Shown here: in pieces, positions 27,238-27,402 of the stretch | Numbering within the stretch: position 1 is the stretch's first letter | Layout of the letters: the number at the start of each line of letters is the position of its first letter | DNA from: Candidatus Saccharimonadales bacterium | Lineage (GTDB): Bacteria; Patescibacteriota; Saccharimonadia; Saccharimonadales; DATKHC01 | Assembly (NCBI GenBank): GCA_035510465.1 | Contig: DATKHC010000021.1 | Coordinates: 66,876 to 130,875 of the forward strand | Reading direction: 5' to 3' | Length of the DNA stretch: 64,000 bases | Notes under the pieces: generated by a model | Told to the model about the DNA's origin: nothing | What the model saw: the letters and a program-made list of their open reading frames with translations, nothing else | Database searches by the model: none | Position numbers and translations under genes: made by a program

Positions 27238-27372
27238 CTAAGCTAACTCAGCAAAAACTCCACCATCCACTACAATTTGTTCGCCCGTCATATAGCTGGA
27301 CATATCGCTAGCTAAGAATAGAGCAACCATACCAATATCGTCAGGCTCAGCCATCTGTTCTGCCGAAGCACC
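27238..27372 (-). pseudogene. C-terminal fragment (~44 codons) of a short-chain dehydrogenase/reductase, truncated at array repeat R8
   Basis: My reverse translation reads QGASAEQMAEPDDIGMVALFLASDMSSYMTGEQIVVDGGVFAELA*. This is the classic SDR C-terminus (..PE(D/E)IA..V.FLASD.(A/S)SY(I/M)TGQ...VDGG). The upstream ~200 codons are missing, and the fragment abuts CT/TTGGCTGGG of the repeat at 27372-27373. Confidence 0.75.
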
Positions 27373-27402
27373 TTGGCTGGGAATTGAGGTTGAATTCCGT
27401 AC
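27373..27402 (+). repeat. Array repeat copy, right core only (left module replaced by the SDR gene fragment)
   Basis: TTGGCTGGGAATTGAGGTTGAATTCCGTAC. Confidence 0.9.

What the first reader, a model, noticed from the sequence alone, without database searches (positions are those of the whole stretch)
27238..27402. An SDR gene is cut off exactly at the CT/TTGGCTGGG junction of an array repeat
Reverse translation of 27241-27372 gives a textbook short-chain dehydrogenase C-terminus (…AEPDDIGMVALFLASDMSSYMTGEQIVVDGGVFAELA*). The ~200 upstream codons are absent. In their place the sequence runs straight into the repeat right core, at the same CT^TGG position used by IS110 copy 2 (…AGCACCT^TGGCTGGGAATTG…). 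The usual left module GCTTATGCT is missing. This looks like the scar of a recombination or deletion event whose breakpoint is the repeat's crossover point. It is physical evidence that the repeats are, or were, recombinationally active.
Basis: partly seen in the sequence, partly recalled or inferred. Interest (0 to 1): 0.55.

Follow-up and report, generated by a model that had tools for sequence, protein, structure and literature searches.

The report
Dead SDR gene stub at repeat
A decaying leftover of a dehydrogenase gene in a Saccharimonadales genome is joined to a cassette-array repeat through 7 shared bases, which are the bases targeted by two nearby RNA-guided IS110 elements, so it is a real deletion scar, but it does not prove that the repeats recombine.

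Summary
Window 27238-27378 (minus strand) encodes the last ~58 residues of a short-chain dehydrogenase (Pfam adh_short_C2 positions 200-235 of 236, E=9e-11; tblastn E=8e-15). The first 203 codons are absent from the whole 64 kb window. The stub abuts array repeat R6, which lacks the GCTTATGCT left module.

One refinement: the cut is not exactly at CT^TGG. Full-length homologues read ...AAMSQGASAEQM..., so the codons S-Q-G (AGC CAA GGT) are native SDR sequence. The joint is therefore a 7-bp identity, CTTGGCT (27372-27378), shared by gene and repeat. It contains both CT cores used by the two resident IS110 copies.

The stub is a pseudogene. It also carries a 48-nt in-frame internal deletion and a +1 frameshift that turns VLLS* into VFAELA*.

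The mechanism is unresolved. An IS110 bridge-RNA "half-match" adjacent deletion (about 0.42) and plain microhomology slippage (about 0.40) predict the same scar. No relative with the ancestral locus was found. The find is of modest interest. The surrounding array, which carries toxin-antitoxin cassettes, has no integrase nearby and has repeats that do not fold like integron attC recombination sites, is more interesting than this scar.

The parts
27238..27378 (-). SDR (adh_short_C2) pseudogene remnant. Stop codon TAG is at 27238-27240. It corresponds to residues 204-261 of a 263-aa full-length homologue. 27238-27371 is SDR-only sequence.
   Evidence: Pfam E=9.3e-11; tblastn E=8e-15; homologue proteins and DNA. 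NCBI annotates a 48-aa 'SDR family oxidoreductase' here (P0001).
27372..27378 (.). CTTGGCT: 7 bp shared by the SDR codons (M)-S-Q-G and the array repeat. This is the deletion joint. It contains CT no. 1 (27372-27373, the IS110 copy 2 core) and CT no. 2 (27377-27378, the IS110 copy 1 core).
   Evidence: L007 native DNA is GCC ATG AGC CAA GGC; the window has CCC AGC CAA GGT.
27374..27402 (+). Right core of array repeat R6 (TGGCTGGGAATTGAGGTTGAATTCCGTAC), without the GCTTAyGCT left module.
27351..27352 (-). Site of a 48-nt in-frame internal deletion in the remnant. Homologues have 16 residues here (KAATEAFMAKIPMHRM) between EQM and GEPD.
   Evidence: 16-residue gap in tblastn; homologue sequences
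27253..27257 (-). A5 run (T5 on the coding strand) with one extra base. The frameshift turns the family's C-terminus VLLS* into VFAELA*.
   Evidence: DNA alignment with L002, L007 and L008; coordinates
26705..27214 (+). DoxX-family gene sharing the R5-R6 interval with the remnant. Its start codon is ACG where relatives have ATG.
27471..27761 (+). 96-aa ORF of the next cassette (R6 to R7), no Pfam family.
20240..21471 (+). IS110 copy 1, inserted in a repeat at CTTATGCTTGG-CT-GGGAATTG. The 5' non-coding part carries guide-like segments AACGCTTGG-CT and ATTCCC-AG.
   Evidence: Pfam DEDD_Tnp_IS110 + Transposase_20; alignment; junctions and empty-site reconstruction
31858..33083 (+). IS110 copy 2, inserted in a repeat at GCTTATG-CT-TGGCTGGG. 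Guide-like segments are GGCTTATG-CT and CCGCCA-AG.
16420..34806 (+). Array of 13 well-conserved and at least 4 degenerate same-strand repeats separating 1-5-gene units. These include MazEF, BrnT/CopG and Fic modules, EamA, M15 peptidase, LMWPc and GT2.

Best explanation
What it is (shown): a dead, decaying 3' remnant of a short-chain dehydrogenase gene, lying at the right-hand end of one unit of a cassette-like array in a Candidatus Saccharimonadales chromosome. A deletion removed its first 203 codons, its upstream region and the left module of the next array repeat. The joint lies inside 7 bp (CTTGGCT) that the gene's own codons Ser-Gln-Gly shared with the repeat.

How it most likely arose (inferred, about 0.42, only marginally ahead of the slippage rival): an adjacent deletion made by a resident IS110 bridge-RNA recombinase.
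- Both IS110 copies in the array carry guide segments programmed for exactly this stretch of the repeat. Their CT cores are 5 nt apart and both lie inside CTTGGCT.
- The SDR-internal site offers a 'half match': CTTGG plus CT for the left target guide of a copy-1-type element, or CT plus TGGC for the right target guide of a copy-2-type element.
- Suppose an IS110 sat in R6, as copies sit in R3 and R11 today. Recombination between its right-end junction (IS end-CT-core) and the half-matching SDR site, about 0.65-0.8 kb to the left in direct orientation, would excise a circle carrying the SDR 5' part, the left module and the IS itself.
- The chromosome would then keep SDR3'-CT-core with no IS left behind, which is the observed string.
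- The remnant later (or earlier) acquired the internal deletion and the frameshift.
For: - Joint position and 7-bp identity.
- Two IS110 elements within 7 kb and 5 kb, each in a copy of the same repeat. Removing each restores a canonical repeat.
- Their variable guide-like segments differ in register exactly as their two CT cores do.
- They are the only recombinases detected among the array ORFs and the flanking ORFs that were scanned. The flanks are housekeeping genes such as UvrA, SbcB, Obg, RuvX, YceG, FtsA and AlaRS.
- Precedent: for IS621, the CT core plus one matching arm as short as 5 bp is enough for recombination (preprint 10.64898/2026.08.31.748434).
- The model explains why the right endpoint falls on the crossover stretch of the repeat and why no IS remains.
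Against: - A reaction between an IS end junction and a half-matching pseudo-target in cis has not been shown for any IS110. It extrapolates from the preprint.
- There is no trace of an IS at R6.
- 15 other CTTGGCT sites in the window carry no junction or IS.
- The 7-bp identity is also what microhomology-mediated deletion needs.
- The same remnant shows a recombinase-independent type of deletion and a homopolymer indel.
- Independent 5' truncations of this SDR family occur without the repeat.
- No relative preserves the ancestral state.
Confidence: 0.42

Rival explanations
1. Recombinase-independent deletion between two short identical sequences. The two CTTGGCT copies, one in SDR codons 203-205 and one in the gene's own downstream array repeat about 0.65-0.8 kb away, were joined by replication slippage or illegitimate recombination. 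The IS110 elements played no part, and the coincidence with their crossover is fortuitous.
For: - A 7-bp direct identity sits at the joint.
- It is a single-step event.
- The same pseudogene has a second, 48-nt deletion bounded by ATG/ATGG and a +1 in a T5 run, both slippage signatures.
- The SDR family was truncated at residues 182 (L002) and 193 (L017) in other genomes that lack this repeat.
- Genes in the array sit 3-150 nt from repeats. A deletion that spares the next cassette must therefore end in or near the repeat. My rough estimate is that only about 6-12 competing 7-mer pairs would exist, so the coincidence is about 1 in 10, not 1 in 1000.
Against: The right endpoint falls precisely on the stretch holding both IS110 cores, in an array where 2 of 13 repeats carry such an IS. 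This model leaves that unexplained.
Confidence: 0.4
2. Secondary-site recombination by the still unidentified recombinase that builds the array, by analogy with an integron integrase joining attC (the integron cassette recombination site) to a secondary site. The conserved core always begins at (T)TGGCTGGG while the left flanks fall into several classes. This suggests the cassette boundary, and so the native crossover, lies at the same place.
For: - R8, R12 and R13 also have heterologous DNA joined to the core at the same base.
- The same repeat flanks unrelated cassettes in L003-L006.
- The cassette content, with toxin-antitoxin pairs and small unknown ORFs, resembles integron arrays.
Against: - No tyrosine or serine recombinase is in the array or among the flanking ORFs scanned.
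- The repeat folds only weakly (-3.5 kcal/mol, no covariation), unlike attC.
- The R12/R13 left flank is itself a conserved ~75-nt leader inherited as a unit, not a set of independent joins.
Confidence: 0.1
3. The short ORF (38 aa from ATG 27354, or the 48 aa annotated by NCBI) is a genuine small gene derived from an SDR C-terminus.
For: The first protein search returned only short SDR-like proteins of 28-80 aa.
Against: - That is a length bias of the search: a 77-aa query returned hits only up to 135 aa.
- P0101, P0110 and P0029 are pieces of frameshift-split full-length genes.
- True remnants start at different residues (182, 193, 204).
- The window copy has lost 16 conserved residues, including the IPMxRMG motif, and its C-terminus is frameshifted.
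Confidence: 0.02
4. Assembly chimera at a repeat, or an insertion or inversion that merely displaced the SDR 5' part.
For: Short-read contigs from the source samples break at the repeat. L001 starts at 27373.
Against: - Gene and repeat share only 7 nt, far below any assembler k-mer, so the SDR-core joint must exist in reads.
- No SDR N-terminal sequence exists anywhere in the 64 kb.
- All 13 repeats keep one orientation.
Confidence: 0.04

Closest known systems
IS110-family bridge-RNA (seekRNA) recombinases such as IS621 and ISPpu10, which insert at a CT core in repeated intergenic sequences; also the IS1111-attC group that targets integron attC sites (the last from my own knowledge)
   Same: - Both elements have DEDD_Tnp_IS110 + Transposase_20 domains.
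- Each has a roughly 270-nt 5' non-coding region with two guide-like segments that mirror the left flank plus CT and the complement of CT plus the right flank.
- CT is present at both junctions.
- The target is a multi-copy intergenic repeat next to a small hairpin.
- The half-match rule (core plus one arm) fits the SDR site.
   Different: - The host is a Saccharimonadales (CPR) bacterium.
- The target is an ordered one-strand array of cassette boundaries rather than dispersed REP elements.
- There was no Rfam hit at gathering score.
- The deletion reaction proposed here is not documented for the family.
Integron cassette arrays, including clusters of attC sites lacking an integrase (CALINs), and IntI recombination at secondary sites
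   Same: - Same-orientation repeats separate 1-2-gene units.
- The units are rich in toxin-antitoxin pairs and unknown small ORFs.
- The same repeat occurs with different cassettes in other genomes.
- A gene is fused to a recombination site without its partner half.
   Different: - The conserved part of the repeat is about 30-40 bp with only a weak 8-pair hairpin and no attC-type R''/L''/L'/R' structure.
- Genes lie on both strands in about equal numbers.
- No IntI is in the window.
Deletion between short direct repeats (microhomology) during pseudogene decay in reduced genomes
   Same: One copy of a short direct repeat is left at the joint. Further small deletions and homopolymer indels sit in the same remnant.
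   Different: The right-hand repeat copy is the programmed target of two nearby RNA-guided recombinases.
Classical SDRs of the FabG / KduD (2-deoxy-D-gluconate 3-dehydrogenase) type
   Same: The C-terminal segment ...EPDDIGMVALFLASDMSSYMTGEQIVVDGG matches at 64-88% identity.
   Different: Only the last ~58 residues are present. The Rossmann fold and the catalytic Tyr/Lys are gone.

Membership tests
Short-chain dehydrogenase/reductase (Pfam adh_short_C2) | Sequence match to the family profile | tested here: met
   E=9.3e-11, but only profile positions 200-235 of 236
Short-chain dehydrogenase/reductase (Pfam adh_short_C2) | N-terminal TGxxxGxG cofactor site and catalytic S...YxxxK (needed for a functional member) | tested here: not met
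   Residues 1-203 of the 263-aa homologue have no counterpart anywhere in the window. This makes it a pseudogene remnant, not a functional SDR.
IS110 family (the two flanking elements) | DEDD (RuvC-like) N-terminal domain plus Transposase_20 C-terminal domain | tested here: met
   Both 315-aa proteins: PF01548 at E<=2e-22, PF02371 at E about 3e-27
IS110 family (the two flanking elements) | Site-specific insertion with a conserved core dinucleotide at both junctions and no long target duplication | tested here: met
   CT is at both junctions of both copies. Removing each IS plus one CT restores a canonical repeat.
IS110 family (the two flanking elements) | Bridge RNA with target- and donor-binding loops | tested here: inconclusive
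   Guide-like segments in the right register lie between a conserved stem (GGAGAGCGAG / CTCGTCTCC). The two copies differ exactly there. With only 2 sequences there is no Rfam hit and no expression data.
Integron / attC cassette array | attC site: imperfect hairpin with R''-L''...L'-R' and extrahelical bases | tested here: not met
   RNAalifold on 13 copies gives 8 pairs, -3.5 kcal/mol and no compensatory change.
Integron / attC cassette array | Adjacent IntI tyrosine recombinase with attI | tested here: not met
   No recombinase other than IS110 among the 40 ORFs scanned in and around the array. The rest of the genome was not available.
Bridge-RNA half-match recombination product | Joint at the CT core with complementarity to one guide arm only | tested here: met
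   For the copy-1 left guide, the SDR side gives CTTGG-CT (5 nt plus core). For the copy-2 right guide, it gives CT-TGGC (4 nt plus core). The opposite arms match at most 1 position.
Bridge-RNA half-match recombination product | Dependence on the recombinase and bridge RNA | not testable with these tools
   Needs reconstitution or read-level population data.

The most novel reading that the evidence does not exclude
The array repeats are not just landing pads. On this reading the IS110 bridge recombinases, the only recombinases seen near the array, use their target-binding loops to recombine repeat with repeat, and repeat with half-matching pseudo-sites. That would make this an integrase-free, RNA-guided analogue of an integron in CPR bacteria. 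The SDR-core joint would then be a natural fossil of half-match bridge recombination.
Probability: 0.12. Interest if true: 0.75.

Novelty: new member of a known kind. Interest (0 to 1): 0.35.

Why it matters
By itself this is one pseudogene scar.

Its value is as a precisely mapped natural junction between a gene and the programmed target of two bridge-RNA IS110 elements. The junction has exactly the 'core plus one arm' identity that recent in vitro work says is enough for off-target recombination. If similar joints recur in other Saccharimonadales arrays, they would show that IS110 recombinases reshape these cassette arrays in nature. They would also give a natural catalogue of half-match off-target events. 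If they do not recur, the scar is ordinary reductive decay.

The public annotation of a 48-aa 'SDR family oxidoreductase' here should be read as a pseudogene.

Tried and rejected
- **Looking for the ancestral locus.** Exact look-ups of the 48-aa and 38-aa products found nothing. The 96-aa neighbour and IS110 copy 1 were found only on short contigs from the same samples with the same arrangement. IS110 copy 2 is not on record.
- **DoxX relatives.** Relatives at 65-81% identity are never next to an SDR or this repeat.
- **Synteny.** There is none between the window and the full-length SDR loci L007/L008.
- **Scans for the repeat.** It occurs in 1 genome locus, 3 metagenome contigs and 0 viral contigs. 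None of them carries an SDR.
- **'Family of short SDR peptides'.** Rejected as a length bias of the protein search, combined with frameshift-split genes.
- **attC-like folding of the repeat.** Rejected.
- **tRNA or Rfam explanations for the repeats.** None found.
- **Inversion or insertion models.** Rejected, because no SDR N-terminal part exists in the window and all repeats share one strand.
- **Literature.** No paper was found describing such arrays in Patescibacteria or Saccharibacteria.

Full report
**Setting.** The window comes from a Candidatus Saccharimonadales MAG. The 48-aa product annotated over the remnant (P0001) is 100% identical to an NCBI 'MAG TPA ... Candidatus Saccharimonadales bacterium' protein on a 223,769-bp contig.

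Between about 16.4 and 34.8 kb lies an array of 13 well-conserved copies of a repeat, all on the + strand. The conserved core is TGGCTGGGAATyGAGGTTGAGTTCCGTAC, and about half the copies carry a left module GCTTAyGCT. There are also at least four degenerate copies at 16420, 16695, 30425 and 33530.

The units between repeats hold one to five genes on either strand. They include MazE/MazF, BrnT/CopG, Fic, EamA, an M15 peptidase, LMWPc, GT2 and many ORFs with no family. The flanks are housekeeping genes: UvrA, exonuclease I, Obg, a methyltransferase; then CHAP/LysM, YceG, RuvX, FtsA, AlaRS.

The same repeat occurs in one other MAG chromosome (L003, OY969420.1) and in three JGI metagenome contigs (L004-L006). 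There it flanks unrelated cassettes spaced 590-850 bp apart.

**The two IS110 elements.** ORFs 20509-21456 and 32121-33068 both have DEDD_Tnp_IS110 and Transposase_20 domains. The elements are 86% identical.

| Element | Coordinates | Insertion site in the repeat |
|---|---|---|
| Copy 1 | 20240-21471 | CTTATGCTTGG-CT-[IS]-CT-GGGAATTG |
| Copy 2 | 31858-33083 | GCTTATG-CT-[IS]-CT-TGGCTGGG |

Deleting either element together with one CT restores a canonical repeat. They therefore use two different CT cores, 5 nt apart, in the same repeat.

In the 5' non-coding region the copies are nearly identical except for a stretch enclosed by a conserved stem (GGAGAGCGAG ... CTCGTCTCC). In that stretch copy 1 reads AACGCTTGG-CT ... 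ATTCCC-AG, and copy 2 reads GGCTTATG-CT ... CCGCCA-AG. These are the left flank plus core, and the complement of core plus right flank, each in the register of that copy's own crossover. This is what bridge-RNA target guides look like (established for IS621; PMC11208160 listed). With only two sequences and no Rfam hit, I call this likely, not proven.

**The observation.** The 44-aa translation of 27238-27372(-) matches adh_short_C2 positions 200-235 of 236 (E=9.3e-11). The closest full-length relatives are L007 9481-10273 and L008 9481-10279. Both are genes split by assembly frameshifts, and they gave a 263-aa reference. tblastn of that reference against the window finds a single hit: residues 204-261 to 27378-27253 (E=8e-15). 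Nothing matches residues 1-203 at E<=10. The repeat core follows directly and the left module is absent.

**Refinement of the breakpoint.** Homologues read ...PGVAAM-SQGASAEQM-... (P0048, P0020, P0099-P0101, P0110). The window reads P-SQGASAEQM. The codons compare as follows:

| Source | Codons |
|---|---|
| L007 | GCC ATG AGC CAA GGC GCC TCG |
| L008 | ATG AGT CAA GGC |
| L002 | ATG ACC CAA GGC |
| Window, minus strand | CCC AGC CAA GGT GCT TCG |

Ser-Gln-Gly is therefore SDR-native, and on the + strand it reads ACC TTG GCT. The repeat reads G CTTGGCT GGG. Gene and repeat share CTTGGCT (27372-27378). SDR-only sequence ends at 27371 and repeat-only sequence starts at 27379.

A blunt, homology-free join would be expected to share about 0.3 nt, so 7 nt means the event was sequence-directed. 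The shared stretch contains both IS110 cores.

**It is a pseudogene, not a small gene.** Besides the 5' truncation, the remnant has two further lesions.
- It lacks 16 conserved residues (KAATEAFMAKIPMHRM) between EQM and GEPD. This is a 48-nt in-frame deletion at 27351/27352, bounded by ATG/ATGG.
- It has one extra T in a T5 run (A5 at 27253-27257 on the + strand). Removing it restores GTT TTG CTG AGT TAG, which is VLLS*, the family's C-terminus.

The first protein search returned only 28-80-aa SDR-like proteins. That looked like a small-gene family but is a length bias: a 77-aa query returned nothing longer than 135 aa. P0101, P0110 and P0029 are fragments of frameshift-split full-length genes. 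Two genuine remnants exist elsewhere: L002 from residue 182, and L017 from residue 193, the latter found in 16 contigs. Their truncation points differ and they lack the array repeat.

The DoxX gene that shares the R5-R6 interval has ACG where relatives have the ATG start. That suggests relaxed selection on this unit.

**Mechanism.** Two models give the identical string.

*(a) IS110 adjacent deletion.* A 2026 preprint shows that, for IS621, the CT core plus one complementary arm (as short as 5 bp) is enough for recombination. It also shows that excision needs only the donor arms (10.64898/2026.08.31.748434).
- The SDR site offers CTTGG-CT to a copy-1-type left guide, or CT-TGGC to a copy-2-type right guide. 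The opposite arms do not match.
- If an IS110 sat in R6, recombination of its right junction (RE-CT-core) with the SDR site would delete the SDR 5' part, the left module and the IS itself. That leaves SDR3'-CT-core.
- This explains the position of the joint and the absence of an IS. But it extrapolates beyond what has been demonstrated.

*(b) Slippage between the two CTTGGCT copies, about 0.65-0.8 kb apart.*
- It is a single step and needs no enzyme.
- It fits the other slippage-type lesions in the same remnant and the independent truncations elsewhere.
- Its weakness is the coincidence of the right endpoint with the IS110 crossover. Genes in the array sit 3-150 nt from repeats, so a deletion that spares the next cassette has to end in a 125-250-nt window. 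My estimate is that only about 6-12 competing 7-mer identities would be expected there. The coincidence is then about 1 in 10.
- CTTGGCT occurs 16 times in the window (9.3 expected), and most copies have no junction.

I put (a) at about 0.42 and (b) at about 0.40. An unknown array recombinase acting at a secondary site gets about 0.10. The remainder goes to a functional small gene (0.02) and to artefact, inversion or insertion (0.04).

**Artefact check.** An assembly chimera is excluded as the source of the joint, because 7 shared bases are far below any k-mer. Short-read contigs from the source samples simply break at the repeat, and L001 begins at 27373.

**What could not be done.** No relative preserving the ancestral DoxX-SDR-repeat arrangement was found. 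No independent contig spans the joint.

**Verdict.** The feature is real and has been mapped more precisely. The deletion-scar reading is correct, but the inference that the repeats are recombinationally active is plausible rather than demonstrated. The scar itself is a new example of known kinds of event. The array, which has toxin-antitoxin-rich cassettes, repeats that do not fold like attC, and IS110 as the only nearby recombinase, is the more unusual object and deserves its own analysis.

Noticed in passing
window 16420-34806: A cassette-like array: 13 conserved and at least 4 degenerate same-strand repeats separate 1-5-gene units with three toxin-antitoxin-type modules (MazEF, BrnT/CopG, Fic). 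It is embedded between housekeeping genes. No integrase was found among the array ORFs and the flanking ORFs scanned, and the repeat folds only weakly, so it is not attC-like.
   Followed up: partly
window 20240-21471 and 31858-33083: The two IS110 copies (86% identical) sit in the same repeat but use different CT cores 5 nt apart. Their 5' non-coding regions differ mainly in two guide-like segments whose register shifts accordingly. This looks like a natural example of bridge-RNA retargeting within one target sequence.
   Followed up: partly
window 34100-34174 and 34733-34806; L005 808-883; L006 1227-1300: There is a second class of left flank. A ~75-nt conserved leader (...agggattcgaactgaggtga...cagaggtgaaatwtTGGCTGGG) replaces the GCTTAyGCT module. 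It lies upstream of minus-strand ORFs with no family and recurs in two metagenome contigs.
   Followed up: no
window 26705-27214: The DoxX-family gene next to the SDR remnant has ACG in place of the ATG start of its 169-aa relatives, and there is no alternative in-frame start before 26915. It is either a recent pseudogene or uses a non-canonical start.
   Followed up: partly
window 20366-20376: The 11-nt string AGGTTGAGTTC of the repeat core also occurs inside the putative bridge-RNA region of IS110 copy 1, right after a segment matching the IS right end (CTACTAGGT). Copy 2 has GCTTATG, the left module, at the equivalent place. These may be handshake-type guides, or chance.
   Followed up: no
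window 27426-27433 (minus strand): An inverted copy of CTGCTTAT, the start of the left-module consensus, lies 24 nt to the right of the R6 core, inside a short palindromic stretch (CTGCTAAAGCTTGCATAATAAGCAG). No model I considered predicts it.
   Followed up: no
L002 266-514; L017 2935-3159: Independent 5'-truncated C-terminal remnants of the same SDR subfamily occur in other organisms, starting at residues 182 and 193 of the reference. The L017 one is conserved across 16 contigs from several samples. C-terminal SDR stubs seem to persist repeatedly.
   Followed up: partly
(method): the search for homologous proteins returned only proteins up to about 1.75 times the query length (at most 80 aa for a 46-aa query, at most 135 aa for a 77-aa query), although full-length relatives exist. 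Short queries therefore give a misleading picture of 'short protein families'.
   Followed up: yes
window 27382-27384: The public annotation (P0001, 48 aa, 'SDR family oxidoreductase') starts at an ATT codon inside the array repeat. The first three residues (M-P-S...) are partly repeat-encoded. It should be treated as a pseudogene.
   Followed up: yes
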